Of a stretch of 64,000 nucleotides of DNA, positions 33,846 through 59,283 are shown piece after piece; the first letter of the stretch is position 1, and each line of letters starts with the position of its first letter. Below the pieces are notes generated by a model. It saw only the letters and a list, made by a program, of their open reading frames with translations, did no database searches and was not told where the DNA came from. The stretch comes from Amoebophrya sp. A120 (lineage: Eukaryota; Protista; Dinoflagellata), in assembly GCA_905178155.1 (NCBI GenBank), contig CAJINV010000001.1, positions 13,429,712-13,493,711 of the forward strand. Reading direction: 5' to 3'. The position numbers were made by a program, and so were the translations under genes.

Positions 33846-35672
33846 TTATCCGCTCTGCTTCTTATTCGACCCCGGTGGCGGCAGGGGGCTGTTCCGAGTC
33901 GTGGTGGGAGTTGCAGCGGACGCGGAGGACGTCGCCGAGCCACTTTTTCTCTTCGGACTGGGACTGCTTGCGGGTTTTTTCTTGTAGGTGCGTGGTTTCT
34001 GCTGCATGGTGTCCCTCCACTCGTGGAAAGCGTCCCACAGGGAGGCCGAGTAACTGCCCATGCGCAGGGAGTTCATCACTTTGAACTCCTCCCGGAATTG
34101 AAAGTTCTCTTCAAACCCAATTTGCAGCGTGAACTCCGCGCGGTTCAGAGGCGACTGGGCGGGTGGGGACTTGGGCTCTACCTCCTTCAAGTTCGGAAAC
34201 GGTTCCGGCTTTTCCGGAATCGCAGGCCATCCTGTGGAAAACAAAACCTGCTTTGTGCAATGAAAGCAACTCTCTGTACAAAGAATGGGCTCTACTACAC
34301 AGCGGCGCATCAAGGCGGCACCTCGAACCCAACTCCAAGTCAGTAAGTCGCGATAGCAAAATTCACTTCTGCTGCCCCGAGACAACATTTCATGTTCGTT
34401 TTCGCATACTCACTTGAAGGATAATTATCTGTGTAGATATTCATTCAGCTGCCTGGGAATTGACCAAAACGAGCATGCTAGTAGTTGCTTTCCGTGGCAA
34501 ACCCATTGAAATACGAGGGCTTGAAGCAGCTGCAGCTGAACATGCAAGACTTGTTGCATTGAAATCTAGTACTTTCGCACAACTTCAGGTTAATGTCACA
34601 CAGGATACGAGCAGGGGCTTCGCTACCGGAAGGCGCTCCAGTACATCTACATCGAGGGCGTCCTCCGGCCGCTTTTGTTCCTATCAGGTGGTACAACATC
34701 CCCTCCCTCCAGACGAAGAAATACTGCCCGGACAACTCACAGTCATGCTTCTGCAAAAAAAAAGAGCGTCGCCATGTATTCTAGCATAAAGCTGCACTTA
34801 TCGGACCACGACAAATGACGGAGGAGGGGAGTTGTAGTATATGATATTTGCCGCACGGCGACCGGCAGTGGAGGGCTGCAAGAAAGTGCGAGTTGTAATA
34901 AGTTGGAGTTGGGACAAACGGAATACTTATCTTTCTTTTCCCAAACATGTTCGCCCCTCCAACTTTGGAGCAAGAAGACTGAAATTGTTCATTATGCATC
35001 GCATCATAAAAGAGGCACCCTTTTTGAATGTAAACAAATAATGCATGGTACTCTGGCTGAAATTTTCTGTCGTATTTTTCTTCCATTTTCTCCTGCTTGT
35101 GCGAAGCCAGTGTGCGCTCGAGGTTCTGGATCTTTCGCACCAGCTGCTTCTTCTCTTTCTGCCACTGCGCACGCTCCAATTCGTGTCGCTGGATCGGTAT
35201 TTTCGGTTGCATTTCACTATCTTTCTAAAACAAAAGCGAAAACTTGCATGTCTTGAATACTAGCGCGCAACTACGATTTGTTTCTATGCGCGTTGCGTGA
35301 CGACTCAACCTGTTTGTTGAATAAAATAGATGTCATGATATACCTTTTTCTCTTGTGCTTCATCCTGCGCTTGTCGGTACTGCTCCACACTCCGCTGCTT
35401 GACGATCGTATCCCAGGAAAAAAGTGTTACAATTACACATTTGTAGTCAATTCAGCAACGCAAATTTCTCTGCATGAGAGAGAAAACTTGCAATACAGAT
35501 ATCCTAGGGGAAAACATCTATGAAACGAGGCTTCTATGCGTATCCGGCATGACAGAGCTGGTCTGTCTTGCTTGGCCTGCAACACAATGTGTAACTGTAT
35601 CACTTTTGCCTTGCGATAGATCGGCGGAGTCGGAGGTGGCTCCGTGACCGACTCCAGCACGGGTGGCCACAT
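33846..35672 (-). CDS. Probable multi-exon hypothetical coiled-coil protein; exon structure only partly resolved
   Basis: Removing element 35409-35618 plus a GT..AG intron can link ...PTPPIVKQRSVEQYRQ... to the coiled-coil ORF 34781-35212. Protein-like terminal exon at 34231-33846; the middle exons are unresolved. Confidence 0.35.
35409..35618. mobile_element. IR-DR introner/MITE-like element (family C), 210 bp, 5-bp TSD GATCG
   Basis: Left end tatcccaggaaaaaagtgttacaattacacatt; reverse complement of right end tatcgcaaggcaaaagtgatacagttacacatt. GATCG at 35404-35408 and 35619-35623. Confidence 0.85.
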
Positions 35673-37523
35673 TCGCGGCACAAGCAGTCGCTTCTTGTTT
35701 TCTCTTTATCCTCTGCGTCTATTGCTCTTTAAAAAAAACACACGGGTACAATCATCGTCATTACCTGCAATGAAGTTGCTTGGATTTGAGATACTAATGA
35801 ATGTGATACAGTGCTGAAGAAGTAAATGAACTTCGTAGAATAGAAGACTATCCACAACTGCGCTGACAGACAAGTGACCCAATTTAGGTGCACCGAGCCG
35901 CGAACGATCTTTTCTTTTAGTCTTCATCCAGCGATGGAAAGAACAAGACGAATCCACGTTGATACGACCCACGATTTTCATTTTCAAAGGTGCTGCTGAA
36001 GAGACTGTACAACTAACAAACACAGTTCACGACCCGGATACTTGATGAGAAAATTGCACGTAACGAACCGCGACAAGAATCTAGGCACGTGAGCAGAATT
36101 TTTCTCTTTGCACAAATACAGACGACAAGAAAACTACACACACAACCGAAAGAGATGCAGTTGATTTTTCTGTGAACTTGACAACTAAAATGACATGGCG
36201 CAGCCCGGTCGCACCACACTTTTGCACACAATCCGTTGTGTACGGAAAGCACCGATAAAAAACACCGACTCACTCCATCAGGATTTTTCAAGCGCCGAGT
36301 GTAGGTAGAACGCTCGCGATATGACCAGAGACTTCTCCCGTTGCTACTGGCGTTGAATGTTGTTTTTTGCCTTTGCAGCTTATCTTGCGCATTGCGAAAT
36401 GCCAGAGCGAGAGTTTTTTATTCAGTACAGCTAAAGACATAGAATCTTTTCAAACGTAGCATCCGCTCTGTGAAATATCTGTTCCTCGCAAAACCGCCGC
36501 ATCAAGCACGAGTGAATCACGCTCGGTTGTCTTGCTCGTACGGACACGGAGAGCCTCCGGGAAAGAAACAAGAGTCCTGCTTCGCCCTCGACGGGTCCAA
36601 GTTCAGTGGACGGCAAACCGATCGCCTCGCACGGGCCGCTCTCTGTGCTGCGAGGCACTGAGGAGGAGGACCACTCCTGCCGTCGCCCCCGAATTTTGTT
36701 ATGATTTGGAGCCGACTGCCATTTCTCTCCGTCCGTGGTGGGTGCGTCGGGTCGATCGTCTCGTCTTGTGCGGTCGCATGTATTTTCCTGCCTGCAGAGG
36801 AGCACTTTCTTGCTGGTCGCAAGTAGGCGGACTCGCTTTATTCATCCCCTGTGGCGGCGTTGTCGTATGAATTTGCCATTTACTTCTGCTCGGTCGTCCG
36901 CGCGAACCTGCGCTTCAACTCGTCCGCCTACTGCGTGCCGACTCGCTCCTTGGGTGTCGCGTGATCGTGGCCGTCCCATGGCTGCGAAGTAAGTAGTCCC
37001 ATCATTTCCAAGAACCCGAACACTAGCTACTTCATACGTCGAACTCTGTTTCCTAGTAGCTGGTAAACACCACACATGAAACACCACGATGAGCAAACCG
37101 GCCAGGTCCGTCCGCGGTCGTTCCCTTAGTGGCCAAGGCGACCTGCCGAACGAGGTTGATCGGAAATGCAGACCAGTTGCAAAAGCGCCGACCACGAAGA
37201 GCTGCAAGGGGACCGCCTCTAGGGGAAGAAGTGCTGTTCTTTAGGACGCTTGTTCATTCGGTTTCTTGTCGTTGTCTCGATTTGCCTGCAAGCCGCGTTC
37301 GTAGATCTTCTCTTTCACGCAAACACCGACCAGCGGTATCGTGTTCAAAAAGTGCACCACTTCGCGAAAAATCCGAGGCCAAGGTCGGTTTTGCCACTCG
37401 TCGATGATGAGCGGCCTAAAGAAGGATTTCGTAGGAAGGCAGTTGAGTGATTTTTGCGTCAAAGTACATAATTTTTGTGTAGTTGAGGACAGACTGTAGT
37501 TGACGCACACTCCGTTCGACCGA

Positions 37524-39105
37524 TCAGACATGACAGCTGCGGAGACAGTTGAAAAACATATCCCGTACGCCAGGACACATTGGCGGGGCACCTGAGGTAC
37601 GACAAGTCCAAAATTGGATCGAGTAGAACTACTAGCTACGGAAGCCATTTCGTTTCGTGTGTATCGGTTGCACACCTCAAAAAGTAGTACAGTTTCACCA
37701 CTAACCCGAATCATATTGATGTATTTGTACCTTGTCCGTAGGGGCGCATGGCTCCGCCGGCCATCGGGATTTTCGCAAGCCTCACACCGTGGATATCCGG
37801 CGTATCCAGCGAAATCTCACCCGTAGAAACCAATTGCGCAATTTCACGCCCGATCTCGCGAAAAAAGGGCTCCACGTTTGCACCTGGAAAGTTTCGATTT
37901 TCGGATAGGTGAAGATTTTCATAAAACGAAATGGCTTGGCCCTCCAAACCGGACAAAGGTCAAACTCTGTTAAATCATCCTTCACTCAGAAACATTTACA
38001 TTTCTGAAAATTTTCAAGGAAAATAAATACCGCTATAGGCGCTGGTCTCGACGTACTTCATATTGGCAGCCGATGCGTAGTCCCTGGCTTCGGATTCTGA
38101 CACTTGTCGGCCGGGGGTGTGCGACACGATCGAGTCCGAGTTAGCCAGGTCCACCTTGTTTCCGACTAGCACTTGGATCAGCATCCGGTTCTGCCTGCCA
38201 CAGGTCTCATGGATCTCCCGCAGCCAACTAGAAAGCCGCGTGAAGGAGCCTCGGTCACAGAGGTCGAAGGCGAAAATAACGGCGGTCGCTTATGGAAACG
38301 AAAAACTCCCTCGTCCCAATATTCTTTTCTTCAAAAGGGCGCTCTTTCAAAAATCCGACACAGCGCGTCTGTTGCTGAATTAGCGTACACGACAATAAAT
38401 CAGCTTTGGCTTGCTGCAAGAGCAGAGTGGAGGCATTTTCTGTGCCTGTTTAGCTCTCCTGCAGAGGACCTCTTTGCACAAGAAGAAACAAACCTTCGCG
38501 GATGCAAAATGGTCTTCGTTTTCCCTGTTTGCAATTTGTGGTCGCAAAGCAACATCACAAGTTTCGCTTTTGGCTACGGGGAGGGAGTGTTTTTCCTCAA
38601 GATATCGCCCCCTTGAACAATTCCTTCTGCAACGCACGCATCGAGGGCCCACCGCCGACGTCGGTCAGAACCATGTGTATCTGCAAGAATTATTTATGCG
38701 CAATCGGTTACTTTTTGAGTGTTTACTATGGTTATGAATGAGCGACGTACATGATCGGCTTCATGTGTTATCTGGTGCCTACAACCACCCACTCGCTCCC
38801 ACAACAGATCGAACTGCGGTTGCAATGAATCATGACCTCTGCGAACGGAGGAAGAATTACTGGTGAAGAAAACGAAAAAAACACGTATTTGCGTAAAAAG
38901 TTTTTACCCTTCTTTTCCTGCCGAACTCGGAGTCCACATCGAAGTGCCAGACATTCGTTTGATGCCCGATCGTGATGTCCTGCGTCCCTGCGCTTTTGTG
39001 AATCAATCTTGATACCAGCGAACTTTTGCCCACGCCCGCCTCCCCGACCACGAGCACCCGCACCTCAATCGGCGCTGCATCAGACAAAGATGCGGAGGCA
39101 GCCAT
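37524..39105 (-). CDS. Divergent Rab-family small GTPase, ~249 aa; exons 39105-38908, 38680-38608, 38288-38031, 37883-37731, 37591-37524
   Basis: G1 GEAGVGKSS, switch I TIG, G3 DVGGG, G4 GNKVD, G5 ETSA, RQVSESEA. Intron 2 is non-canonical; the last exon is tentative. Confidence 0.85.
38291..38604. mobile_element. IR-DR introner (family B) forming non-canonical Rab intron 2, 314 bp, TSD TCGCT/TCGCC
   Basis: Ends tatggaaacgaaaaactccctc and gagggagtgtttttcctcaagata. Removing 319 nt restores ELFKGATAVIFAFD. Confidence 0.85.
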
Positions 39106-39721
39106 GTTTTACGAAGTTTCTGCTTCTTGATGTTCCAGGTATGGTAAAAAACTACGTGAAAACAAGTCCAAATCGCACTCGCTCTCCGAAAAAAAAAACT
39201 ACCCACTCGACGTCAATTGTCTCCTGCGCAGGTGTGTGAGAGGAAAGGTTTACGATCTGGGATCGACGGCTATATCCCTTTGGGTCCTTGATGGTTGTTT
39301 GGAGAAAAAACGAGGACGTAGAGGACGTGCTAACAGGTAAAGGACGACCGTATCTGTAAGTCTTGTTGGAATGGCAACCTCTAAGTGATTACGGACGATT
39401 GGTGCAATCTCTCAGATTCAACGCAGAAATGAAAATACCGAGAAAGAGGTATACAAATCTTTCCTACTTTGCAGCATGCACGACTCCCGGACGTACGACT
39501 TGTTAAACGAACACATATGTCTGTTTGGAAAAAACGTTTCTGCGCTTTGGGGTCAGTCGGAAAAATTTATGATGGTGTACGCTATCTGTCCAAACACGTC
39601 TTCTAGACGCTGGCGAGTGCCGAACGACAACACGATGTTAGATCTGCGCACAGCGCAGGGAACAGAGACGAGTAGAGTGGCGCGTCGCCGCTCATATTTC
39701 ACAGCATCAGCCGTTATCTCC

Positions 39722-42517
39722 TTATTCAAAAATTCGTCCGTGAAGAGCTACCCGCGCGAACAAGGTCATCCAGAGTACGTAGAGCGCGCCAAAGAGGAAC
39801 ATGTGCGGGCCTTTGATGACGATAGTACCATCCGGCCTGGAGGCTAGCACGACCGTGACGATGTAAAACACAAACACGTTAAGGAGCTGCGACTTGGCCG
39901 CCAAACGCACCAGGTAGTCGTGTCGCCCGATCTCCACGGGCTCGCCGCCGACGAGCACGGCCACCAGCCAGGAGCAGCCGAGTCCCAGACAAATGTTGGC
40001 GATCTGCGACCCAACGCAGGCGGAAACCGCCATGGACCCGAGTCCGCGCTTCGCCACCGTCACCGAATTAATGGTGTCCGGAATCTCCGCGCCGACTGCC
40101 ACCAGACAGAGGCCGAAAAACGCCATCAAGCTGGGGACCTGCAACGCGTCCACCCAGTCACAAGAAACGTCGGTGACAATGTAGGAGAAAAAACTGATCC
40201 AAGAGAAGGACACAAAGAACGTCACGGCGTAATACCGTTCGTGCACCTCTCCGGCGCGGCAGTCCGGACAGGTCACCCGCAGACCGAATTCCACGGGAAG
40301 CAGGCACAGGTGCAAGCCCTTCCGAATCCTGCTGGCGGCGGTCGACGGGGGCGCACCCGGACCTAAGCAACACACTCCTTTCCAACACCGACTGCTGGCC
40401 ACGTAGTTGCGCCACCTCCTCACACAACACCGGCGCGTTCGTCTGAAACCTCTGACGCATCTCCTCGACAGAACAAGCACGCATGTCCGTAACCTCCGCG
40501 TGGGGGCACTGTAGTTGACGTCTTCTGCATTTATTTCTTCGTAATTGTAGAAAAGGTCGCTGTCGACGTCATCAATTAGGTCCTCTTCTTCTGCGTCGTC
40601 GAATCGCAAAATGGCAGCTTCACGAGCACTTCCAGTCGACCCGGTGTGCTGACTTTCGGGCGAAAGCGGGCTGGCCTGTGCCGCTGGTGCGCCACAAACC
40701 GGGCGATCGTAGATGGCGGCATACTTATCGTCTACCATGAGGCTATAGTCCGTCGCATTTCTCGTACCGCTGGGAGCCGTCGCCTTTTGCGACCGAGGGG
40801 GTGTTGACCCCGAACCTGTTCCGTCGGTCGAAGCTGGAGCGGGTAACTGCCGCGTCGTGCTAGGCGAAATAAGCGCTTCGGTCACGGACGCGGTGGTCGA
40901 AGAATCCGAGCCAATGGAGAGAAACGAACTCAGCACCTCGGGGACAGACGCAGAGTACGATGAAGAAGCAGGTGCACCAACATCCGCACTACTTCTTGTG
41001 AACGTGCTGTCAACCACCTGAATATGATCTTGATGCTGAGCAGAGCCGCCGGGATCTAAGCCGGGTCTGCTACTGCTCGCGAGCTGGCTGAGCTCCGTCT
41101 CCTCCACACTGATAAAACCCACCTGCCGTGGCTCCGAACTGGTACCCGTGTCGTCCTCGCCGCGCAGGAACTGACGCCGCGCCCGCACCAGCATACCGAG
41201 GTAGGACACGTACAGGAGCAAGAGCGACACGGCGGAAAAACACGAGGCTTCGCGCTCATGTAGGGCGTAGTTCAACACAAGCAAAGCGGCCGCGTAAAAA
41301 AACACGTCGCGCCGCAGTACCCCGCGCTTTAGGAACAGGGCCCGTGGTGCGTTCGCCTCCCGCTTCGGGGCGAACCACACGCAAAGCGTCGGAATGAGCA
41401 GAAACGCAATGAACCCCGACCCCAGAATGCCACCAACGCCGAGGTCGGCCGGGGACGCAATGTCCTCGCCGAAGGCCGATTCCTTCGTGAGTGCGCGTGT
41501 TGTTCTCGGTAGACTCAGATATGTCACATCGTTACTTCGTTGATGCTCCGTCTGGTCCTGTGCGCTTCGATAGGTGGAGATTGCGTTCACGGTAATTTCC
41601 GGGATTGCGGAGCCAAACGCCATGAAGCTGGCCCCGGCGACATCCTCCGGGACCTTGTTCCGCGTGCACAGCGTTTCCATCGAGTTGCACAAGTGGTCCG
41701 CGGCTAGAGCCAGGCCCACGAAAGCGTAGGCGAAAAACACCAGCTGCAGGGAACGCCGGAAAAAGATCGCTCCGGTTTCGTTCGAGAGCCACTGGGATGG
41801 GTGAAAGACGCCGCTTTCTGTTGCGGAGGCTGCTTCCACGTGCACCGCCGGGGCAGCAGAACTCGAGGATGCAGGGGAATCATTGGGTTCCCGAGTACCA
41901 GAACTTCCTTCGACATCTTCCTCATGCGTCTTTACTTCAGCACCCGTTGGTGGAGCCGTGTCAGACGGGGGCTGTTCGTCTGTTCTCGTGCCTGTTGACA
42001 GTAACGCAGGTGGTCTCAGTGTGGTCGTGGCTTGTTCTTCAGTCTTCGGAGCAGGTCCGCCTGTGGTTGCTCCACTGACGGCGGGATCTTCCACGACCTC
42101 CTTGTTACCACCCTCCCTTCTGGAGGTGAGAGCATGCGTTTTCGGTATGCTGGTTGTTTCATCCCTCTCGTCCCGATCATCGTCCTGCGACAGGGACGGC
42201 AGATCCTGCGCGGAAACGCCTGCGGAGTTGGCGGACTGCCAATGCTCACTAGGCTCCTCGGATTGACCACTGGTCGAGGCAGATTCAACACGACCGGACG
42301 AGCTCGTTGTTCCATTTTGATATTGATTTTCAAAAGTCGTATTGTTCAACTTCTGCAGCGGAAAAAGAGATGGCAATAACGCTGTCGCAGCCGTCGCTTC
42401 AGAAGAGAAAGACTTAGAACTTCTTATCCGATCTGCGGAACTTTTTATGGGTACTAGCGCAAGTCGGAAGAAGATTAGGACTACTGCTCTACAGGAAGCC
42501 AATCTCGATAAAGTCAT
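39722..42517 (-). CDS. Ca2+/cation antiporter, NCKX/SLC24-like, 931 aa, intronless
   Basis: Alpha-1 repeat DVAGASFMAFGSAIPE; alpha-2 repeat GLCLVAVGAEIPDTINSVTVAKRGLGSMAVSACVGSQIANICLGLG; signal-like N-terminus; two TM clusters separated by a large loop. Confidence 0.9.
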   Translation of the reverse strand: MTLSRLASCRAVVLIFFRLALVPIKSSADRIRSSKSFSSEATAATALLPSLFPLQKLNNTTFENQYQNGTTSSSGRVESASTSGQSEEPSEHWQSANSAGVSAQDLPSLSQDDDRDERDETTSIPKTHALTSRREGGNKEVVEDPAVSGATTGGPAPKTEEQATTTLRPPALLSTGTRTDEQPPSDTAPPTGAEVKTHEEDVEGSSGTREPNDSPASSSSAAPAVHVEAASATESGVFHPSQWLSNETGAIFFRRSLQLVFFAYAFVGLALAADHLCNSMETLCTRNKVPEDVAGASFMAFGSAIPEITVNAISTYRSAQDQTEHQRSNDVTYLSLPRTTRALTKESAFGEDIASPADLGVGGILGSGFIAFLLIPTLCVWFAPKREANAPRALFLKRGVLRRDVFFYAAALLVLNYALHEREASCFSAVSLLLLYVSYLGMLVRARRQFLRGEDDTGTSSEPRQVGFISVEETELSQLASSSRPGLDPGGSAQHQDHIQVVDSTFTRSSADVGAPASSSYSASVPEVLSSFLSIGSDSSTTASVTEALISPSTTRQLPAPASTDGTGSGSTPPRSQKATAPSGTRNATDYSLMVDDKYAAIYDRPVCGAPAAQASPLSPESQHTGSTGSAREAAILRFDDAEEEDLIDDVDSDLFYNYEEINAEDVNYSAPTRRLRTCVLVLSRRCVRGFRRTRRCCVRRWRNYVASSRCWKGVCCLGPGAPPSTAASRIRKGLHLCLLPVEFGLRVTCPDCRAGEVHERYYAVTFFVSFSWISFFSYIVTDVSCDWVDALQVPSLMAFFGLCLVAVGAEIPDTINSVTVAKRGLGSMAVSACVGSQIANICLGLGCSWLVAVLVGGEPVEIGRHDYLVRLAAKSQLLNVFVFYIVTVVLASRPDGTIVIKGPHMFLFGALYVLWMTLFARVALHGRIFE

Positions 42518-43148
42518 CCTTTCCTATTCTCCGACAGCTACAGCTGCATCTTTTCATCTACTTACATCAAAGCACCAGCCTGCAGCTACCCCGCACTATC
42601 ATTTTAAGCGAAACGCACATGGATCGCGTCACTACCATCAGGCAGAAAGTTCAGAAAGGGACTGTTCGACAAGGAAACTTTGTAATCGACCGAGAGAGAC
42701 TCTTATTGGTTCCTGCGAAAAATGATTGTCAAGAAAAAAATTTTTCCGACCTGAGAACACGCTTCTCGAAGGTCTACTTGAACATCTTCCTGCTTTGTGT
42801 TTTTTTTTCCGAACCTTCCATTTCTATCAAAATTTTAGCGCAAATCACTCGATGTCCGCCATCCTGGTCGCTACCACTCAGGGTCCCGACCCGCGTATCA
42901 TGGTCAGTTTCAACACAAAAATTTTCGGTACTGTAGCCCGCGCCTCATGCGACAGGCCATGCGCATCGGATAGTACGGATGTTGCTCGTGTTCCTGTGCA
43001 AATAAAACTGCGGTGACTGCAAGCATCCTCTCGCTAATGCGACGACCTGCGCGCCCTTGGACCGAAAACTCATGCTTTTGTGGCCATCGCTCGCAGAGGC
43101 TCTGCGGCGCCACGTTTTCGCAGTAGCGTTTCCCGGGACTATGTCTTG

Positions 43149-44346
43149 CTATGCGAAGTTCAACTGCGCCTGAAGTTCTGCTAGCTGGGCCTCCTCGTCT
43201 GCAGCAAGATTTGCACTGGCGGCGGGCTGATTTGAAGAAAGACGGACGCTTGTACATCAAACAGACATGAAAAGAAAACACGTTTGCAACCTGCTGTAGA
43301 GAGCGCTGCGGTAGTTAGTAAATTGTACCTTTGCTGATGCGGGTGCTGCGGTTGCCGCTGCTGGTTGCGAGGATGAAGGTATCGTTTTCGCGTTTAAGAG
43401 GTCTTCTTCGAGTAGCTGGGCGGATAGCTGGTCCAGCTCCTCGTCTAGGTCCATATCGCCCCCAATTTGGTCCGCATCTGAGCAATGATAGAGATACAAG
43501 CTGGGGAACAAGGTCATTTTCACGTTAGAACCAAACGCAAACGACAACACAGCAGTTACCACACTTTTCTCATGCAGGAAAAAAATCACTATACTCTGCG
43601 CAAACAGGTCCGACACTTCGTTGCTGAAATCGTTCTGCTCTGCAAGATCGTCGAAAAGCTGCTCCACCTGAGTTTGAGATAAACAATAACAACAAAAATC
43701 CCAGTCTTCTGGTGAATTACGTCCCATGCTATGGAATTCCGGCGCGCCTGCAGAAATATCGAAATGTCTTCAACTGCGTGAATCATAAGCGACAACGCAG
43801 AGTACCTTGTCGGCATTCATATCTTGCGCTATCTTTTTCTGCATCGCAAGCCCTTGTTCCATGGCTCGCACTGCCGTCATATTGGTTGTCGCGTTTTCTA
43901 GCTGCCTGTGATAGAAATTTTTTGAGAGATGGATGCAAAAAAGAAAAAGAACTTTTTTTACAAAACTGCTTGATCTGGTCGTCGTCGATACAAAGTCGAT
44001 ACATGTTCTCCCGGAAAAACACTGATTGTGAAGGGTAAAAGTGATGAAGAAAAGAGTACAGGCATTGATTTTCCAGGGTGAGTATCTGGTTGTCAATCTG
44101 CTGTGCGTTTTTGGTCAACGCCTGCTTGCGCAGCAGGGCCATTTTGGCCCCGTTTTTGTCCTTTTTTCTGACCTTGTCCCGTACACTCTCTTCAAGCTCC
44201 GCTACTTGTGCGTCCATGTATTTTCTCCTCTTCTCGAGCGCTTCGATATCCCCCCGCAATCTCTTGATCGTGTCTGCTGCCTCGGCCCCCAAGCTCTTTG
44301 CCGGCTTCTCCTCCTTTTTCTTCTTGCTTCCGAAGAACAGATTCAT
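43149..44346 (-). CDS. SNF7: ESCRT-III subunit Snf7/Vps32/CHMP4, ~228 aa; exons 44346-44060, 43905-43806, 43667-43595, 43477-43329, 43226-43149
   Basis: MNLFFGSKKK, IKRLRGDIEALEKRRKY, AKMALLRKQ, TLENQ.LQLENA, LDEELDQL and C-terminal DEEAQLAELQAQL. Four GT..AG introns give a 687-nt CDS. Confidence 0.88.
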
Positions 44347-45569
44347 GGTGTGTTCGTCTTTGTTCCTGCGAAAAGTAACAAAGACCACGCGGATGTCTAT
44401 TTCCGATAAAGCAGAGGCTGAATCGGATCTCGATTCCTCTTTCAATCAGCAACAGCCTGGCCCGCTATCCCTGAAATGCTCGAATCCTTTTTATGCTTTT
44501 CTAGACAGAGCTTCTACCTGGTGTGCGAGGTTCTACTCGGATCTTCGTAAGGTCTTTCCGGCGTGAGAAGTGACTGATTTTTGGACGCGTACGCAACCTG
44601 CAGCTGCTACAAATTCCGCGTGCCGCTCAATTTGAGGTGGTGGTGGATGTCAAAGGGGTAGAAAGGTCGGACGGGTCGTCCGCAATCGCGCAGCGCTTTG
44701 TACCGCAAGTGGGAGTTGTATCAAATTGCTGCCACGGTCAACGACCAAGAAAGGCTTTCCGTTGCTCGCGATCTCGTGAAGGCGTGTCTTCCTTAGGGCG
44801 CACCAAAGGTAGGTCCTCAACGTAGCACGCTAGCGGCGTTCAGGAGGAAGGCCTGGCACGAAAATCCTCACAGTATGAACGCCATCGCGGTCAACCTTCT
44901 CCTGCGAGCCGCATCACAGATTTACCAGCGTGTAGACAAACATTGAGATGAAATAGGCCTTGTAACAGGCGTGACAAAACAAAAAGCAGCTTTCTTTACA
45001 ACTTTCTTCACACACGATAAAGCGCACGGGAAACCAATCCAACAGCTCTTAAGCACAAAAATTTTCTAAAGTCCTACTGCTGCCGGAGTCTTGGGCGAGA
45101 ATGACTAAAAAAAGAAAAACACCGCAATCTTCTACTTCCAGAGCGAATCAACATATGCAGAACCTGTGGCACGGTGTCTCGACTATCTATCTGATTTTGT
45201 TCGATTTTGATACAAGTGACCCACGTGCCAACTTTGCACGAATCTAATGGAACGGTGAAGCTGAACTATTTCAGCAATTGTGCACCAAAGTCTATGGTGC
45301 AGGCTTTCCTGAAATAAAAGCGCGACCCTGCCGCTGAACACTTGCAAATTACAGTACTGGAGGCAGTAGTGGTTTTGATGTTCGCACTTCATTATGTGAT
45401 TGTCGCTTGCTGTAAATGTCGTTCGGATTCCTTTTTCAGAAAGGGCGAGTCAGCCTGTCGTCCTCGCTTTATCGTTTTGATGGATAAGTACTTAACAGTA
45501 CAATCACAATGTCGCACGAGCAATCATACCACACAGTTTACGCACCCAGCGCACGCCTTCAAGAAATGA

Positions 45570-48500
45570 TCAAGCGCCACCAGCAGCACCACACGCTGTA
45601 GCGTCTGCTACCCTCTGCGTAGTTTTTGCTTGTTTCTCAGTCGCGTCGCAGCTATTCGGCACTATTTCTACGATGATTTTCAGCTTCTCCATACCCCGCC
45701 CGGCGACCACGACACTTGTCGTGCCAGCATCGTCTCTTCTTGATTCTAGAATACACAGCGCCTGAATTTCCGTCACAGACGTGCGGGACGAGGCCACAAG
45801 GGTTAGCGGCTTCACCGAAGACGATCTGTTGTGCGCTTTCCCGACCGTTGCGGAAGATGATGAGCACCTGTAAGATTGGAGCATCTCCCTGCAGCAATAC
45901 ACCCGGACTACGCGATCCCATCCCGCGGTGACCAACAGTTGTCGTGGTTCATCATAAGCGACACACTTCAAGGCGCACGCGGAAATATGGCCCCTTGTGT
46001 TTGCGATTTCGACCGCCGGCTGTTCTGGCCATGCAGCTTTATTGGTGGCATGCGCAAACACGTCGCCATCCTGTTTCTCGAAGAAAGGGCGCAGGATGTA
46101 GCACATCCCATCGTCGCAGGCAGCCGCGATCAGTGGCGTTTGATTTTCTGTAGAATTTTCCGGTGCTTCTGCTTTCATAATTGTGACCGCACATACCGCA
46201 TTTACCGAACCGGGCAGGAACTTGAACGAGTCGCGGTCCCATTTATTCATTCTCCCATCGAAAAGGTATACACCGCCGTCGGTACAGCCGACCGCGAAGC
46301 TCGCCGCTGGCTGTCCTGCCTCATGTAGTTCTACTTGGGGCTCAACACGACGAGCAGTCTGGTGCATCTTGACGATCCCCCCATCTTCATCCATGTTCTT
46401 TCGCATCGTTGGTTGCCTTAGCAACGCAACTGCCATTCCTACCCCAGTTCCCGGAATTTCGAGCCGAGAAAGGCGACCGAGGCGGGCGGTCGTTCCAGTG
46501 AGAAACAGTGTCCCGAACAGGACCACACCACTGGAGGTGGTGGTTGCGAAGCGCAGCAGGTTTTCTCCGTCCACTCTGGCGTCGATGGCCAGCAGGCGGT
46601 CCTGTGCGAGAACCTTGTGAAACTTCAGGGTGTACGGAGCTGCCGTTGCGTCGAAAACTTTCAGTTCGCCGTGCGCGCTACCGGTCACGAGAAAAGAACG
46701 ACGACCACCGTTCGAAGAACTTTCTGTTTGTTGTTGTTCTGCGCAACACATGCATTTCACAGCGGAGGCCTGTCGGTGAAAAATTTCCGTGTCGCATGAC
46801 GAAAAAGACATCGGCTTCACGCTGTTCTGCTCGCTGTGAAAAACATGTTCTTCTCGCTGCTCTGCCCCATAATCACTCTCACCGCTTTCCCGAAACGTGT
46901 GTACTGCAAGCACGTTCTCTTCCCCTCCGGAAAATAAAACATCTTCCTCACTAGGGTTGCTGTTCTGTGACGTCGCTGACGATGATCTTGCGATCATGCT
47001 TCTTCGCGGACAAGCCAGCGCCAAAACTTCCTTCCCGACACCGGCGTTGAGCAGCTTCTGCGAGAAGGTGTTGACTTTTGGGATCTTTTTGACATACACA
47101 GCATCCTGTTGAGTGTAAACGAATTCCTCGCTCGAGATGCAGAAGGCCCGTCGCGCGCCGCCACAGTTCACCTTGACCAGCTCGTCGCCCTGGTAGCCGC
47201 TCACCATGACAAAATCCCCCGCTGTGAAGCCCGCCAGAAGGGGTTCTTTTTGTTCTTGCTCACCTTCTACACATGATCCACCGGCGGCATCATGGAAGTA
47301 AAGATGCGAAATCTGCGAGGATTTATACCAAAACACCTTTTCCAAAGAGAAAACCGGGTTTCTTTTCCCATCAGCACTGCTGCTTGACGCAGTTGTAGAT
47401 GAGTCTGACACGATAAATTCGTTGCGACAGCTCACGCGCCACTGTGCCACCGTCGAGTCCGCGCCAAGGGAGTAGAACGAGCCTGCGCGGCTTTTGTCTC
47501 TGTGTAACGATAAAATCTTGCCCGCGTGCGCATTTCCTTGCTCGAAAAGCTGGGCACCCGTTGAATATTCGAAGAACCGCATACGTCCCTGGTCATCGCC
47601 GAAAACAAAGACTAAGGCAGGTTTGCCTTGACTTTCGACGTTCACACACTCGACAAGACAACAGGCCTGCACTTTCAATTGTGGCTGCTGCCACAAAAGC
47701 GACAAAGTGGAAGGGTCGCCGCCTGGATTGCTGACACTTGGCTCTCCGTCTCCAACCCTTATTTCGTACACTGCAATAGCACTGGCGGCGGCAGCAACGA
47801 GAAAGTGTTTGATTTCACCGCCTGTCTCGTCACAGCCAGTCGCTGCGAGCGGGCGGCTGAATGGCCAGAGATTGACTACGCGTCCCTTCTGCGGGAAAGG
47901 GCACGCTGCGACTTGCATTGTGCGAGCAGAATCGACTTCAGAGAAGGGCCGCTTTTCGATGTTCATTTCTACACCTGCTGGTGAATTGAAACTACAAATT
48001 CGACCGCAGGCAGTGCCGGCAAAGACGACAAACTGATCACCGTCGTTGCCGCACGACGCTGCTGGTATCCGCATGTCACAAATTTTGGTGCACTGCATCC
48101 TTGGTCGAGGTCCTTCCTCCGGATGCTGTACCTCAGTACCGTCTCTCGCAGTTCCAGCGGACGGGTCAAATTGTTGCACTTTCCCGCCGTCGGTGCTGGC
48201 ACTTCTATCCTCCGGTTGCTTGTTCAACGACGACGCTAAGTGCGGAAGGTTCAACATTTCGTACGCATCGGACGGATTGTCTTCTCTTGTCTCGGCCCCG
48301 GTCGATAGTGATCTGCTACACACGGTAGGTGATCTGTTCACACAAAAAAGTCGCCCGTAGTTTGTCGCAACCAGATACGCACTGGTATCGCCGAGTCGCA
48401 CAATGTCGCGGACCCAATCCTTTTGTTTTGTGCAAGTCCTCGAAGCATCTTGCGTTCGTGTGCAATCATCTGGAATGCTAAAAAGCAAGTCAGTGCAGGG

Positions 48501-50105
48501 CTCAGCTCGTTCTCCAAGTATTTCCGGAGCGCCATCTCCAGTAAGCGTGCCTTCTTGCGTTGTCGACACGCCAGGGTAGCTGCAGCTGAATGTGAATTTG
48601 TGAAAACCACCGTCACAGCCCACGTAGAGCTCCAAAGAAGAGGCTTCATTTGCGGCGCGCTCCAAAAAGCAGAAGCGGCCCGGTGCGGTCAAACTGAAAG
48701 TCCGCAGGCACGTACAACCCCTCCAGACCTTCACGGTCTGGTCTTCGGAAGCAGTTACCGTCAGAAAATCATCCTGGAAGATTGCAGCAAAGCGGCGGTC
48801 GCTCTTGGAACCATCGTTGTTCATCTTTGCCCTACTTCTACTTCCACCGATGTCAAACGTCCGGACGCATGTCACTCTGCCACCGTGGCCGGTCAGCTGC
48901 CCGAGCAGCCGCCAACGGCTCCTCGTCACATCAGTCGCTGTTGTAGCGTCATTTCCCTCCTCCGTAAGTTTTATTCCCGTTGAATCTTCATCAGAGTCTT
49001 CCCCCCAAATGCGCACACTGCGGTCGTCGGACGCCGACAAAACCACCCTGCCGTCCAGCTCCGGAACCGCGTGAACGTCCAAAATCGCCGCGTTCGGGTG
49101 GCTCCCGACCTCTGCTGGGCGCGCGTTTCCGCTTCGTCGACACACCGTGAATATCTTGCCAAACGGGCCGCCGCAGAAAGGCTTCGGATTTTTCTTGCCG
49201 GAAGTAGAGAATCCTCCTGTACTTTTGACCATTGCTCCTCCGCCTCTTTCAGCAGTGCTGGTCTCTGGCACAAACACGACGTCCGCGGCATAGGAGACCG
49301 AGTGAGAAACGACGTCTGCGGCCTCGTGACGCGGGGACGCTTCATCTTTCCGGAACCGCCATGACCCACGAGAGGCTTCGCACACGGATTGTTGTACTTC
49401 AGGGACGACTTCCACAATGAACTTTTTTATCGAGCCCAATGCGGTGATGACGATAAGTCGAAACAGGTCGCTGCCGCCAGGACGACTTCTACCGCTGCTG
49501 CTGCATAAGTCGAGTTCACAATGCAGAATCCATTCTTCCTTCCCCAAAACGTGCAATGCGCTTCGATGCGCATCCACGTCGACGTGACCACATCTGGTGG
49601 AAAGCAGAGTCGCTGCACCGCTCGAGGACGAGGAAGATGAGGGCGTCTTCGCGCTAGGCGCTGATGCTGATGTACGATAACTCAAGAGAGAGTTACTTCG
49701 CATCGCCTCGTCACTTCGAAGTGTCACACCCTTGAGTGCAATCCGGTCCTCACCCCAAGAAAGCAACACAGTCCGTTGATGAGCCCCTTCTTGCGCATCC
49801 TGTTTCTCTGTGGAGCTGTTGACACCAGCTCCGTACGAAAAAAGCTGCACCCCATGGGCAATTGTTCCTGTCGATGGCTCCTGCCGGTCGCACTCGAAGG
49901 TGCAGCCGTCTTTCGTTTCACTAGCGTTGCCGAGTACTTGCGGCGCAACGCCCAGAAAGCTCCCCGTGTCCTTTTCAAAGAAGTGCACGTCTGGGCCCAT
50001 GGAAACACACTGCACTTTCCTTCCGGAGACGCATCCGGACGCGCCGGCAAGGCAAGGGCCACGGAAACCCTGACTCACGAGGCTAACCCGCTCAGCCTGG
50101 GCCAT
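45570..50105 (-). CDS. WD40-repeat protein, WDR6/Trm734-like (tRNA 2'-O-methyltransferase partner), 1511 aa, intronless
   Basis: WD repeats SASDDRSVRIW, GHGGRVTCV, TASEDQTVKVW, TAGWDRVVRVY; WDR6-like AGFTAGDFV..VNCGGARRAF motif. Confidence 0.7.
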   Translation of the reverse strand: MAQAERVSLVSQGFRGPCLAGASGCVSGRKVQCVSMGPDVHFFEKDTGSFLGVAPQVLGNASETKDGCTFECDRQEPSTGTIAHGVQLFSYGAGVNSSTEKQDAQEGAHQRTVLLSWGEDRIALKGVTLRSDEAMRSNSLLSYRTSASAPSAKTPSSSSSSSGAATLLSTRCGHVDVDAHRSALHVLGKEEWILHCELDLCSSSGRSRPGGSDLFRLIVITALGSIKKFIVEVVPEVQQSVCEASRGSWRFRKDEASPRHEAADVVSHSVSYAADVVFVPETSTAERGGGAMVKSTGGFSTSGKKNPKPFCGGPFGKIFTVCRRSGNARPAEVGSHPNAAILDVHAVPELDGRVVLSASDDRSVRIWGEDSDEDSTGIKLTEEGNDATTATDVTRSRWRLLGQLTGHGGRVTCVRTFDIGGSRSRAKMNNDGSKSDRRFAAIFQDDFLTVTASEDQTVKVWRGCTCLRTFSLTAPGRFCFLERAANEASSLELYVGCDGGFHKFTFSCSYPGVSTTQEGTLTGDGAPEILGERAEPCTDLLFSIPDDCTRTQDASRTCTKQKDWVRDIVRLGDTSAYLVATNYGRLFCVNRSPTVCSRSLSTGAETREDNPSDAYEMLNLPHLASSLNKQPEDRSASTDGGKVQQFDPSAGTARDGTEVQHPEEGPRPRMQCTKICDMRIPAASCGNDGDQFVVFAGTACGRICSFNSPAGVEMNIEKRPFSEVDSARTMQVAACPFPQKGRVVNLWPFSRPLAATGCDETGGEIKHFLVAAAASAIAVYEIRVGDGEPSVSNPGGDPSTLSLLWQQPQLKVQACCLVECVNVESQGKPALVFVFGDDQGRMRFFEYSTGAQLFEQGNAHAGKILSLHRDKSRAGSFYSLGADSTVAQWRVSCRNEFIVSDSSTTASSSSADGKRNPVFSLEKVFWYKSSQISHLYFHDAAGGSCVEGEQEQKEPLLAGFTAGDFVMVSGYQGDELVKVNCGGARRAFCISSEEFVYTQQDAVYVKKIPKVNTFSQKLLNAGVGKEVLALACPRRSMIARSSSATSQNSNPSEEDVLFSGGEENVLAVHTFRESGESDYGAEQREEHVFHSEQNSVKPMSFSSCDTEIFHRQASAVKCMCCAEQQQTESSSNGGRRSFLVTGSAHGELKVFDATAAPYTLKFHKVLAQDRLLAIDARVDGENLLRFATTTSSGVVLFGTLFLTGTTARLGRLSRLEIPGTGVGMAVALLRQPTMRKNMDEDGGIVKMHQTARRVEPQVELHEAGQPAASFAVGCTDGGVYLFDGRMNKWDRDSFKFLPGSVNAVCAVTIMKAEAPENSTENQTPLIAAACDDGMCYILRPFFEKQDGDVFAHATNKAAWPEQPAVEIANTRGHISACALKCVAYDEPRQLLVTAGWDRVVRVYCCREMLQSYRCSSSSATVGKAHNRSSSVKPLTLVASSRTSVTEIQALCILESRRDDAGTTSVVVAGRGMEKLKIIVEIVPNSCDATEKQAKTTQRVADATACGAAGGA

Positions 50106-51248
50106 TTTGGTGACGGAACTACAGGGCTATCACCACACACCGCGAACAAGCTTCGATCGAGTAACAAGGCAGAACTAAGTAGGCGATATCTAGCACATGG
50201 TTCTCTACTGCGATGGAATAGGAGAATAGCCGTAGTACTAGATTATTATGGACAAGCAGCAAGTACAACACCGGAGAAGCATTAGAAATAGGTGTAAGTG
50301 CTTCTCGAGAAGCCGCACAACAGCCATCCACCTCGGCCGCGTACTGGTATATGTCGCTGTATTTTTCGACTTCTATCAATCATGCAGTTCTTCGGATCAC
50401 AAGACTTAGATCGTGGCCTCCGCTTGTGACCTTGTTTTTGCATGATCTTGTTGAGGATCGGACTTTTAGCGCTGTCGGTGCACCGAGCCTTTCCTGGATC
50501 TCAAAGAGCCTTTTTCAGGAGCTACATTTCTATTTCTTGGAATTGGATCACAGCAGATGCCCGATCATTGAGAACCTCTAACCATTTCCTTGCACCACAT
50601 TCTGTTCCTCCTCTGCAAATGCGAACCACAAAATTGCGCATACTTAAGATGGCAGCTACTTTCCCGGGTTAAAGCTTGACAGAATGAAAGGGAAACTTAA
50701 ACTTTTCCTTTTGTGAAAACCAACTTTGGAATACTGAAAAACATGCATGCAATGGTTTTACGATTTGCACTTGATGTCCAGCAAGTTGTCTGCAGAGCCA
50801 AGAACTAAGGTACAATCATTTTCTGAAATTCGCCGCAGTCGCGTTATTCTCAAAGTAATGCTATCAATTTAGGAAAAATTGGGTTTGCTGTTTTGCAGTG
50901 ATGAAAGAGGTTATATTGTAAAAGTCTTGGAGCACGCGCGAACCTCCAAAGGATTGCAGGCCTCATATTTCAACATGGACATGGGTATGCATTTTTTGAG
51001 CTGGTGAATGGTGTTCGATGCTACCTTTTTTATCTGAAAACTTCTTACTCGCCTCGTTCTTATTGATTCCTAAAGTTCTCAATGAATTCTGCGAACAAGC
51101 TCTTTGTTCTCAAATTGAAATTGACTTCGAATTTTACATTTGTTGAGAGGCGAGAATTTGAATTTCCGATGGTATCCAGGGTCGCGCAGAGCATGGCCGG
51201 AGCATCCAATCTTTGTTTGGCTTTGGCGCGGCATCTGCACTGCGTCAA

Positions 51249-54200
51249 TTACTCGGCTTTTTTCTTTTCTCCGCGAAGCCCGAAAATTTTTGGCGTTCCA
51301 GCGGGCGTGACTTGCAGGGCCTGCAGTGCCTTCATCAACGGACTCAGGAGGCCGTCCGTGTTCTCTTTGTTTTGCTCATCTTGATCGTTATCCTCCTCGG
51401 CATAGAGGCTTTCCGGGCTGTCTAGCGTGTTTGCAATCACAGGGTCGCAAGAAGATTGCGTACAGCCCTCGGTCTGGTCCGCGGCAGAAGAAATATCGCT
51501 CCCCAAACTCGCTGGCCTGGTCGTTCGCGAGGTCGTTCCCTCACCGATGAAGGCGCAGCGGCCACTCGGCGTGCCGTCCAAAGACGACGGCGCTAGCGAG
51601 TCCGTCCCAACGGGGCTTGGATTTGTTCCGAGGATTGCGGAAAGCCCGGCTGATGCCCACTCCGTAGTTCGAAGATCCACGTACTCCTGCTGGGTTCCCA
51701 TCTGGGATCGATAGTACCCACACGACGATGTTGACCCCACCCCGGCGTTTACATTTTCTACAGGCACTAAGAGGCGCACACCGGACAGCGCAAACTTGTA
51801 CCGTTCCGTTGCTTCGTCCCAATACAAATCGAACACAGCGGAACCGAGGTTCTCGTGCATCGATTTCTTCCGCGCGGCCTGCTCGGATTCTTCCGTCCTC
51901 AACGTCCACTCATCGGAGGTACAGCAATCCTTATCCTGATCAGCGTGTTGCCGCCCGTTACTATCAGGATTGCAATTAGATGCTGTTCCGTCCCACGAAA
52001 CGCCTCCGGCATCTTCCTCTTCGCCACCCACCGATTCTGCATGCATCGTGGCGAACTGGGAGCAAATTCTCGGAAGTTGCTTCTCTCTGGACGATGTGTC
52101 TGAGGTCGTCCACAAGAATCCCGTCCTGCTTCCCCGGCCGCACGCACAGCATCGCCTTCGCAACCGCTGCAATGCGGAAGCCGATGCTGTTTGATCATCT
52201 CCGACTGTCGTCGAAAATCTCATTCCAAAGCCGGGTCCTCGCACTAAACGATCTTCACCTTCGTCTTCGTCGACCATCACGCTGAGCTCTTGCATCTTCA
52301 ACAGCCCGGCGTTCTCGGGGATAGTCATGCTGTTTGGTGTAGAAGTACCCCCACCAGCCGAGCCTATCAAAATGGAAAATCCCCCCACCCCATATCAAAA
52401 CGGAAATTTGTGATGCTGATTTGGGGCCACAAATCAACTTTGTATTGCAGAGAGGCATTGCGGCCAGATCCCCAGGCTAGGTAGAGGCGCATGTGTCTAG
52501 CTGTTCAGCATGGCAAACGACTCCCCTTCAGGCCCACCAGCATGGCAAATCGCTTCCATAATGGGGCGGAAGCTTCTGCGCTTGTCTTCTTGCAAGACAG
52601 ATGTGATTTGTGACCTCAAATCCGCAACACAAATCTTTGGAAGCATACTTTTTCAATATGGGGAGGGGGGATTTTTCCTCTCAATAGAGCCGCCTTGCTT
52701 GCCACTTCCGTACAATTTGTTCCCCGACCGCGCATATCAAAAGTAAAAATGTCTGGGTCTGGAAGAATGCGCGATTTATCATGCAGCTTTTCCATGACCC
52801 ATGAGGTCCGGAATACAGGACCTAGCATGACAGATTCTGTGCGATCTTTCTCATGCCTATCCTGCATGAGAAACTGCCTCCCGACTCGGTCAAAACTGGG
52901 CGACTTTTGGTAATCATGCAACACAGATTTTTGCATGCTTCAGACTTAGCATGACAAGTTGCATTCTTCCAGACCCAGACATTTTTACATTTGATAGCCC
53001 AAGCGGTGAGAGCAAAATTTGCTTCGACGCGTCGGACAGCATCTCGTCGGAAGAAGAGGACTCGTCGTCATCCTGGGCGTAAAACAAGTCCGCGTGGTTG
53101 TTTGTTCTGCCCGCCGCGTAGTAAAAATGCATCCCGATCGCAACATGCAGTTCTTGCGAGGCACTTGATCTTCGGCCTGAAGATGACACAACAGCAACTC
53201 TGCTGTCGGCACCAAACACGAAAGGGCCCGCTGAAATGGTTGAGCTGGCGCTGGAGCTCTGTCGTTCGAATTGGCCAGCAAGAGGAGTAGAATCGTGGTC
53301 TCTACGATTGGAGGACCCTTGTTGGCTCGGACTGCCGTCGGGCGACGTCGTCCGACTGGCTGTAAACACCGTTGTTGGGTTAATGTCTGCTTTTTTATCC
53401 GTCGACGACTTTGCAGAAGATGTGGTTTCGTCAGAAGTAGAGCGTCGATTATATTTCGCTAGGTCCAGAACGACCAAATCCTCAGCCGCAAAGACGACAA
53501 GGTCGCTGACGGCACCACGAGAGAAATCAAACCTGTGTGCCTGCAGGGTCGGCTCTTGGATCAGTTCTCCCTCACGCTGCAGCATCGTGTCCCAAAGAAA
53601 AGCACTAACGTCATCTTTGGACGCGACTTGGAGCTTCGACCCGGCAACGATTGTCAGGCTCTTCGCGGGCCCGCGCGAGGAGCAGATATTTCTTCTTCTC
53701 GGCGAGGACCCTCGATGAGAGCTAGCCCGGCTGTGCGCTGGATTGTGCTTTGTGCCGGAATTGGTGCAACCCCGTGCTGTATTTATTTTACCGTGCTTTG
53801 ATTGGTTATTTCGGTGCTGCGCACCATCAGCAGATCCCGAGATATACTGAACAACGCTCTGCCACGGAGAACCAAAGACCGAGGAAGAAGAGGTTGAAGA
53901 CCCGTGCCGTACCTCCGCCTCGCACCTACTATTGTCGGATAGTTTTTTTCCACTTGCAGACGCAGATTCGGACACCAGCACACGACCATCCCTATTCAAT
54001 TCCAGTGCAGTTGTGTCTACCCCGACACAGTACGCAGAAGTAAGCAGCAGCGACGGGCCCACGATGACCCCGGTACATTCGTGACTCCGCGAGTAGAACC
54101 GCTGTCCCTGTACGAGCACCACCGATTTGGCCATGTCACCCACCAGCTGCTTCGTCGGGTCCGGACCCATCATGTGCAGTGACCCCATTTTGAAACGAAA

Positions 54201-54326
54201 CTCATCAACGGTTTTTGCAGCAGAGGCAAAAATCTGGGTGCGATCGTCGGGGAAGAGCAGCTGGTGTGGGCCGGCGAGACCTGCAACCCAGCGGAGCAGC
54301 AGTCCGGTGAGCGAAAAGAACTTCAT
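51249..54326 (-). CDS. Secreted trypsin-fold (S1) pseudoprotease, ~827 aa; exons 54326-52997, 52729-52691, 52363-51249
   Basis: Signal-like MKFFSLTGLLLRWVAGLAG; HECTGVIVGPSLLLTSAYCV, DLVVLDL, NLGSAVF, FALSGV, CGY..YVDLR..W. The frame is restored by removing two introners (2484-nt CDS). Confidence 0.65.
52365..52686. mobile_element. IR-DR introner (family B), 322 bp, 5-bp TSD GAGCC; can be read as a GC..AG intron 52364-52690
   Basis: Left end tatcaaaatggaaaatccccccaccccatatcaaaa; reverse complement of right end tattgagaggaaaaatcccccctccccatattgaaaa. Confidence 0.88.
52735..52996. mobile_element. IR-DR introner (family A), 262 bp, 36-bp TIR with one mismatch, TSD GCGCA/GCCCA
   Basis: tatcaaa(a/t)gtaaaaatgtctgggtctggaagaatgc at both ends in inverted orientation; central hairpin tttctcatgc..gcatgagaaa. 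Confidence 0.92.
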
Positions 54327-58800: not shown

Positions 58801-59283
58801 GTTCAGCATCCCATGGTGGGTTCCCGCGGGCTTGTCGACAAACATGCCATGATCGGAGGAAGTCGGAGGCCCCTGCTCGCTCGGCAGACCGAAATCCATG
58901 TGGCTAGCGGCATTGATCGCGTCGAAAAAACTGCTCGTATGGATTGTAAAAACGATCTGGGTCTGGGTCTGGAAGGTTGGAACTTGTAATGCTAGCTTTC
59001 CATACCTAGAAAATCTGTATTGCATAACCAACAAAAGTCGCAGTCCTTTTTGTCATGCAAAAACGCAGTTTCTCATGCGGATTGCCTATGAGAAAGCGTT
59101 TTGGGAAGTTGTCATGCCGGACTGCATTCAGAAAGTCTTCATCATGCACATTTTAGCATCACAAGTTTCCAGACCCAGACATTTTTGCATTTCATAGCTC
59201 GGAATGGCGTCCAACTCGTTGTCCTCGCCGGAAAGGGCCGAGCTCTCCTCCACATCCAGCTCGGGCACGGCCACCGTCGTCAT
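55807..59283 (-). CDS. OST-HTH-associated (OHA) plus LOTUS/OST-HTH domain protein with a His/Gly/Pro/Tyr-rich disordered N-terminus, ~1070 aa; exons 59283-59197, 58932-55807
   Basis: Motifs LQSLYDDRIFP, GWIDPNSPEESYPDELW, RGRYGMAQEL, GETCHIVERAI, LSETVFHETKLLDLM are typical of myzozoan OHA/LOTUS proteins. Exon 1 joins in frame after introner removal. Confidence 0.78.
58938..59196. mobile_element. IR-DR introner (family A), 259 bp, perfect 5-bp TSD GCTCG
   Basis: Ends tatggattgtaaaaacgatctgggtctgggtctggaa and ttccagacccagacatttttgcatttcata. Removing 264 nt gives DAIPS|SFFDAIN in frame. Confidence 0.92.

What the first reader, a model, noticed from the sequence alone, without database searches (positions are those of the whole stretch)
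38291..52686. A second, independent introner family also present in both orientations (Rab intron 2 and pseudoprotease intron 2)
Seen: the left end of 52365-52686 (cccatatcaaaacggaaatttgtgatgctgatttggggccacaaat) matches the reverse complement of the right end of 38291-38604 (cccgtagccaaaagcgaaacttgtgatgttgctttgcgaccacaaat). The opposite ends also match (aatat.ggga.g.ggg..ttttc). One copy interrupts a Rab with otherwise intact GTPase motifs, so precise removal is very likely needed. This repeats the orientation-independence result in a second family.
Basis: partly seen in the sequence, partly recalled or inferred. Interest (0 to 1): 0.8.

Follow-up and report, generated by a model that had tools for sequence, protein, structure and literature searches.

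The report
Amoebophrya introns spliced in either orientation
Two related transposon-like inserts in genes of a marine parasite (Amoebophrya) point in opposite directions yet are both missing, to the base, from RNA assemblies; they belong to an already described kind of non-canonical intron that is likely cut out by way of its paired ends rather than the usual splice signals.

Summary
38291-38604 (A, Rab intron 2) and 52365-52686 (B, intron 2 of a trypsin-like gene) are TAT...ATA elements with terminal inverted repeats and 5-nt direct repeats. They match end to end in reverse complement: 78% over 63 nt, with the opposite orientation preferred in 95 of 96 scoring schemes. Both host genes are on the minus strand. 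RNA contigs skip A (3 of 3 covering runs) and B (1 of 1) exactly; a DNA-like run keeps A intact. The host proteins are Amoebophrya sp. A120 records that already lack both inserts, so these are the A120 introners of Farhat et al. 2021. Two-orientation introners are reported in Polarella and Aureococcus; I found no such statement for Amoebophrya. 'Independent family' is overstated: A/B share the TAT-N7-AAAA end and a 13-nt subterminal motif with the other family, A-B homology is confined to the ends, and there is only one pair. Useful extra: at both imperfect duplications the RNA keeps the upstream copy, which constrains the cut geometry. The scan has noted similar hairpin-bounded introns on other DNA. 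Known kind; modest interest.

The parts
38291..38604 (-). Element A: non-canonical introner, TAT...ATA, degenerate terminal inverted repeat; Rab intron 2 (319 nt removed with one repeat copy)
38605..38609 (-). Upstream (transcript) copy of A's 5-nt direct repeat, GGCGA; its letter is the one kept in the RNA
38286..38290 (-). Downstream copy of A's direct repeat, AGCGA (one mismatch)
52365..52686 (-). Element B: non-canonical introner with long terminal inverted repeats, opposite in orientation to A; intron 2 of the P0002 gene (327 nt removed)
52687..52691 (-). Upstream copy of B's perfect 5-nt direct repeat (GGCTC)
52360..52364 (-). Downstream copy of B's direct repeat
38908..39105 (-). Rab exon 1 (P-loop)
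38681..38907 (-). Rab intron 1, canonical GT-AG, removed on the same RNA contig as A
38605..38680 (-). Rab exon 2
38029..38285 (-). Rab exon 3 (Pfam Ras E 2.2e-14; 100% identical to A120 record P0001)
51252..54326 (-). Gene for P0002 (827 aa, Amoebophrya sp. A120), trypsin-like by a language-model lead only; carries elements C and B
52735..52996 (-). Element C (other family): imperfect direct repeat TGGGC/TGCGC; RNA keeps the upstream copy; 267 nt removed
58938..59196 (-). Element D (C's relative, opposite orientation to C); removal inferred from the reading frame only, no RNA laid there
35409..35618 (-). Element E: third TAT...ATA element with 5-nt direct repeat; 215 nt removed in RNA; minus strand inferred from neighbouring CT..AC introns

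Best explanation
A and B are non-canonical introner elements of Amoebophrya sp. A120 that sit in opposite orientations in two minus-strand genes and are absent to the base from RNA contigs, likely because the cell recognises their paired TAT...ATA ends, which read alike either way round. Inferred origin: non-autonomous DNA-transposon-like (MITE-like) insertions that made a 5-nt target duplication; a DNA-level insertion has no strand preference, hence both orientations. Inferred removal: the terminal inverted repeats fold into a closing stem that brings the exons together; the cut takes the element plus one repeat's length, which restores the pre-insertion sequence whatever the element's length. 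Shown: the joins, lack of any GT-AG register, end pairing predicted in both directions, and retention of the upstream repeat letter at both imperfect repeats. At C this puts the 5' cut 0-2 nt before TAT and the 3' cut 3-5 nt after ATA. Not shown: the enzyme (modified U2-type spliceosome or another activity), the transposase, or whether A and B use C's register.
For: RNA contigs join 38285 to 38605 in X4, X1 and X5, and 52359 to 52687 in X4; X4 also removes 10 canonical introns in the stretch, two of them on the Rab contig, so it behaves as spliced RNA. Bin depths match fully spliced contigs (X1 33 vs 32.4 expected; X4 9.52 vs 9.51). DNA-like run X7 has one 16,817-nt contig, 0 differences, across A and into B's left end, with depth 0 for the A joint. 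Splicing by these joints reproduces record P0002 exactly (827 aa) and the first 231 residues of P0001, restoring a Rab (PDB Rab39B E 4e-20). Terminal duplexes are -23 to -53 kcal/mol in both directions for 5 of 5 elements against -1 to -14 for 10 of 10 canonical introns. Whole-element folds: A z -2.7, B z -4.8. Opposite orientation wins 95 of 96 scoring schemes; simulated same-orientation copies never reached the observed margin (0 of 2000; 0 of 2400 with randomised core). The ends fit the A120 motif in PMC7789003.
Against: Only one pair (plus C/D), and A-B similarity is confined to the ends. In the outermost 30 nt the same orientation scores slightly higher (44 vs 40). A's inverted repeat is weak (self local score z 0) yet it is removed cleanly, so a strong stem is not required. 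B alone has a GC..AG register. All informative RNA data are assembled contigs from cDNA; the three raw-read runs did not cover these genes.
Confidence: 0.8

Rival explanations
1. A relaxed but ordinary U2-type spliceosome removes each element using whatever near-canonical dinucleotides the duplication supplies (GC..AG for B, CG..AG for A), as in Polarella introners that work in either orientation.
For: B has a GC..AG register and A an ..AG register. Most spliceosome proteins and U2, U4, U5, U6 are present in A120 (PMC7789003 section 10). Polarella classes recruit sites from the duplication in both orientations (bioRxiv 2020.10.14.339549).
Against: C's allowed registers (GC..GC, CT..CG, TA..GC) have no AG; no register of D or E has a GT or GC start with an AG end; B's GC..AG register is one that C's junction excludes. 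U1 was not detected in A120.
Confidence: 0.25
2. The joins are reverse-transcriptase template switches across a hairpin flanked by direct repeats, not splicing.
For: Hairpin plus short direct repeats is the anatomy of such artefacts (PMC8240250, search listing only), and all RNA evidence here is cDNA-based.
Against: Retention truncates the Rab at residue 93 and P0002 at 468. No retained contig adds depth over A in X1 or X4. A's stem is weak. My inference: a polymerase stalled at the stem would have copied the downstream repeat, but at C the RNA has the upstream letter (G, not A, at that residue).
Confidence: 0.05
3. The apparent opposite polarity is a by-product of exchange between the arms or between family members; A and B were inserted the same way round, or are only TIR-sharing strangers.
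For: Cores are not significantly alike after trimming 90 nt; the outer 30 nt lean to the same orientation; my simulations do not model recombination or gene conversion.
Against: Both ends agree on the opposite orientation from 60 to 130 nt inward (69-79 vs 35-49); C/D give the same answer in 89 of 96 schemes.
Confidence: 0.12
4. The RNA comes from cells whose DNA lacks the elements (empty alleles or DNA-level excision).
For: Cannot be excluded for the environmental run X5, whose contig differs at 7 of 238 letters.
Against: Listed X1 and X4 exon pieces have 0 differences from the window; the DNA-like runs X7 and X9 show depth 0 for the A joint and X7 runs unbroken through it.
Confidence: 0.04

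Closest known systems
Introner elements among the non-canonical introns of Amoebophrya sp. A120 (Farhat et al. 2021, PMC7789003; passages, sections 10 and 16, supplement search)
   Same: Same organism by the protein records; TAT start then about 7 nt and a run of A; 3-5 nt direct repeats; terminal inverted repeats and hairpin; about 240 nt mean length; published proteins already lack A, B and C.
   Different: In what I read the paper does not discuss orientation relative to transcription, and leaves the border position unknown; here one pair is shown reversed and an imperfect repeat narrows the register.
Polarella glacialis introner-like classes and Aureococcus anophagefferens introners (bioRxiv 10.1101/2020.10.14.339549, passages)
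   Same: [quoted passage not shown]
   Different: Those use ordinary-type splice sites (GT/GC/GA..AG) carried by the element or recruited from the duplication; A, C, D and E have no such register.
Euglenid nonconventional introns (PMC11282704 and PMC12501133, passages)
   Same: Non-canonical ends, inverted repeats that bring the ends together, TSD-like repeats, suspected MITE origin.
   Different: Different end code (CAG/CTG pairing, not TAT...ATA), unrelated lineage; excision as circles is reported there and untested here.

Membership tests
Amoebophrya A120 introner element | RNA-supported intron with non-GT-AG ends | tested here: met
   Joins; no GT..AG register for A or B; B has one possible GC..AG register
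Amoebophrya A120 introner element | Terminal inverted repeat starting TAT, about 7 variable nt, then 3 or more A | tested here: met
   All four ends of A and B; motif from PMC7789003
Amoebophrya A120 introner element | 3-5 nt direct repeat at the borders | tested here: met
   B perfect 5 nt; A 5 nt with one mismatch, 4 nt perfect
Amoebophrya A120 introner element | Repeated elsewhere in the genome | tested here: inconclusive
   B: met, very many related contigs in the DNA-like run (summed bin depth 81,458 vs about 45); A: single-copy depth 48.9 at 85% likeness
Amoebophrya A120 introner element | Predicted hairpin joining the exon ends | tested here: met
   strong for B, modest for A
One family in Farhat's sense (A with B) | Identical inverted repeats and at least 30% intron identity | tested here: not met
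   Ends differ: 77.8% over the best 63 nt (definition). They are relatives, not members of one such family
Family independent of C/D | No shared ancestry or signals with the other family | tested here: not met
   Shared terminus and 13-nt subterminal motif; B vs C global z 4.8-4.9. Local scores are low, so they are distinct subfamilies
MITE (non-autonomous TIR DNA transposon) | TIR, TSD, short, no coding capacity | tested here: met
   (3-4 stops in every transcript-sense frame of A and B)
MITE (non-autonomous TIR DNA transposon) | Cognate transposase mobilises it | not testable with these tools
   No genome held; PMC7789003 found none in A120; PMC12130899 attributes A120 introners to diverse transposons
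U2-type spliceosomal intron | GT/GC..AG ends and lariat branch | tested here: inconclusive
   Ends: not met for A, possible for B; branch not testable

The most novel reading that the evidence does not exclude
Amoebophrya A120 runs a second, orientation-blind splicing route that reads only a paired TAT...ATA stem and cuts it in a fixed staggered register (at or just before TAT, and 3-5 nt past ATA), so any insertion of this transposon superfamily, either way round and even after its repeats decay, is removed perfectly without U1 or GT-AG; imperfect target duplications map that register genome-wide from existing data.
Probability: 0.4. Interest if true: 0.7.

Novelty: already known. Interest (0 to 1): 0.32.

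Why it matters
How Amoebophrya removes tens of thousands of introns without GT-AG ends, and apparently without U1 snRNA, is an open question (PMC7789003). Removal in both orientations argues for DNA-level spread and for a symmetric, structure-based signal. Imperfect duplications give a cheap way to locate the true cut sites that the paper left undefined. The elements themselves and these splices are already annotated, so the gain is a constraint on mechanism, not a new system.

Tried and rejected
Whole-genome counting of orientations was not possible: no genome is held. Raw-read RNA runs X11-X13 gave 128, 3 and 1 partial reads, all on repeats, none on these genes, so there are no read-level splice ratios or strand. 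X1 did not cover the P0002 gene, so B and C have no second RNA run. DNA contigs linking ends of different elements (tables 5 and 5c) give no transcription strand, and C's ends are too alike to orient; not used. The X4 contig joining an E-like part to a B-like end (35467/52648, 21-nt side) is too short to count as a mosaic. Rfam found 0 families in 35000-60000. P0002 has no Pfam hit and its first 459-residue frame no PDB hit; 'pseudoprotease' rests on trypsin-like Atlas neighbours (score 0.93, about 108 of 256 features) and a TSAYC motif where trypsins have TAAHC (motif recalled), so it is a lead. No ortholog without the inserts was found (1 hit each). The Huff et al. 2016 paper was not available; the Aureococcus statement is taken second-hand from the Polarella preprint. 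Figures of PMC7789003 and datasets of PMC12130899 were not visible and may bear on orientation.

Full report
Observation. A scan of the window for TAT/TTA...ATA/TAA segments with a flanking direct repeat and paired ends gave 9 rows: five clear elements (A listed twice; E 35409-35618, A 38291-38604, B 52365-52686, C 52735-52996, D 58938-59196) and three weak rows. All five have a 5-nt direct repeat, perfect in B, D and E and with one mismatch in A and C.

Host genes. A interrupts a minus-strand Rab between the residues LFKGA and TAVIF; keeping it stops the protein at residue 93. Exon 3 is 100% identical to record GSA120T00018907001, whose sequence already reads across the site and matches Rab structures. 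B and C interrupt a minus-strand gene whose spliced product equals an 'unnamed protein product [Amoebophrya sp. A120]' letter for letter, 827 aa. The window is therefore A120 DNA or nearly identical to it, and both splices are in the published gene models. The 'pseudoprotease' label is only a lead.

Removal. Contigs of run X4 show 15 joints in 34800-53600: 10 canonical, 4 that remove E, A, B and C with exactly one repeat length, and 1 stray. X1 and the environmental run X5 repeat the A joint. Bin depths leave no room for retained contigs over A in X1 or X4, though contigs drop rare forms. The DNA-like run X7 has flat depth of 43-49 outside the repeats, a single 16,817-nt contig with no differences through A and into B, and no A joint. 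The joint table of that call showed 15 of 125 rows, so for B the DNA control is the unbroken contig only. The three raw-read runs did not cover these genes.

Orientation. Because B's arms are 70.6% alike over 85 nt, the same orientation also aligns above chance, so I tested the call. Opposite wins 95 of 96 scoring schemes for A/B and 89 of 96 for C/D. Mutated same-orientation copies of B were miscalled 2 of 2000 times, and 12 of 2400 with the core randomised, never with the observed margin. Against: the outer 30 nt lean slightly to the same orientation (44 vs 40), the cores are not significantly alike after trimming 90 nt, and recombination was not modelled. D's removal is inferred from its reading frame. 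Two reversed pairs are enough to reject a strict single orientation, if the calls are right, but say nothing about bias.

Independence. A/B and C/D differ beyond the first 16 or so bases, but share TAT-N7-AAAA ends and a subterminal motif: an exact 13-nt match between the 5' ends of A and D, the longest among 32 cross-family end pairs, against a maximum of 11 in 300 shuffles. A looser form of the motif, defined after seeing these elements, has 7 of 11 window hits inside the 2.1% of the window they occupy. B, C and E have very many relatives in the DNA-like run; A has none at 85% likeness. So A is a diverged orphan related to B, and the two 'families' look like branches of one superfamily, probably sharing mobilising and splicing machinery (inference).

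Mechanism. No register of A gives GT or GC with AG; B has one GC..AG register; C's three allowed registers and all registers of D and E have none. The end 35-mers pair in either direction (-23 to -53 kcal/mol) while 10 canonical introns do not (-1 to -14). At both imperfect repeats the RNA keeps the upstream copy's letter. At C this confines the 5' cut to 0-2 nt before TAT and the 3' cut to 3-5 nt after ATA; if the geometry is shared, B's GC..AG reading is not used. It is also the opposite of what I would expect from a reverse transcriptase stalling at the stem (inference). I therefore favour removal guided by the paired, symmetric ends; the catalyst is unknown.

Comparison with print. Farhat et al. 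2021 (PMC7789003; passages, sections 10 and 16, outline, supplement word search) describe these elements: 29,850 repeated introns in 1954 families in A120, TAT-start inverted repeats, 3-5 nt direct repeats, no U1 detected, borders undefined. Their uses of 'orientation' that I saw concern gene order. Passages of PMC12130899 and PMC9860276 list A120 introners or allow opposite-orientation matches as a method, without stating the result for A120. The Polarella preprint (passages) reports several classes that make introns in either orientation, as in Aureococcus, with ordinary splice sites. Euglenid parallels are from passages; PMC12005148 passages say these elements are confined to part of the genus. 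Six literature searches on introners turned up no statement on orientation for Amoebophrya; figures, datasets and subscription papers were not seen. The scan's own notes hold four similar cases from other genomes, unchecked by me, and nothing near this place.

Verdict. Real, correctly located and correctly read as precisely removed introners in opposite orientations; an already described class, at loci already annotated. The orientation and register observations are small, testable additions. Interest 0.32.

Noticed in passing
window 37300-37729: With the main RNA joint (37589/37729) the Rab is 249 aa and ends ...NCLRSCHV, a plausible prenylation tail; an alternative acceptor (37414) gives 250 aa ending ...KWCTF. 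The public record P0001 (341 aa) departs after residue 231, probably a gene-model error.
   Followed up: partly
window 18950-19594: Weak candidate element: TAT...ATA ends, 5-nt repeat with one mismatch, 645 nt, with a second TAT-N7-AAAA start at 19345, possibly nested; no RNA laid.
   Followed up: no
window 622-1057 and 1442-1880: Direct repeat, 81.7% over 443 nt, with further partial copies to 2370, inside minus-strand reading frames; looks like a tandem internal duplication.
   Followed up: no
window 52687-52734: Only 43 exon bases separate elements B and C; DNA contigs show many other places where two elements lie 16-40 nt apart (table 5c).
   Followed up: no
window 55810-59052: Host gene of D has Pfam DUF7602 and OST-HTH-associated (OHA) domains; the opposite strand also has a stop-free frame of 1064 codons.
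   Followed up: no
window 46710 / 39813: A joint between these places with 3 letters between appears in X1, X4 and the DNA-like X7, so it is probably a short similarity or a related locus, not splicing.
   Followed up: no
window 38114-38670: An environmental oligo-dT run (X5) holds a 97%-identical contig with the same Rab junction: a wild relative either splices A or lacks it.
   Followed up: partly
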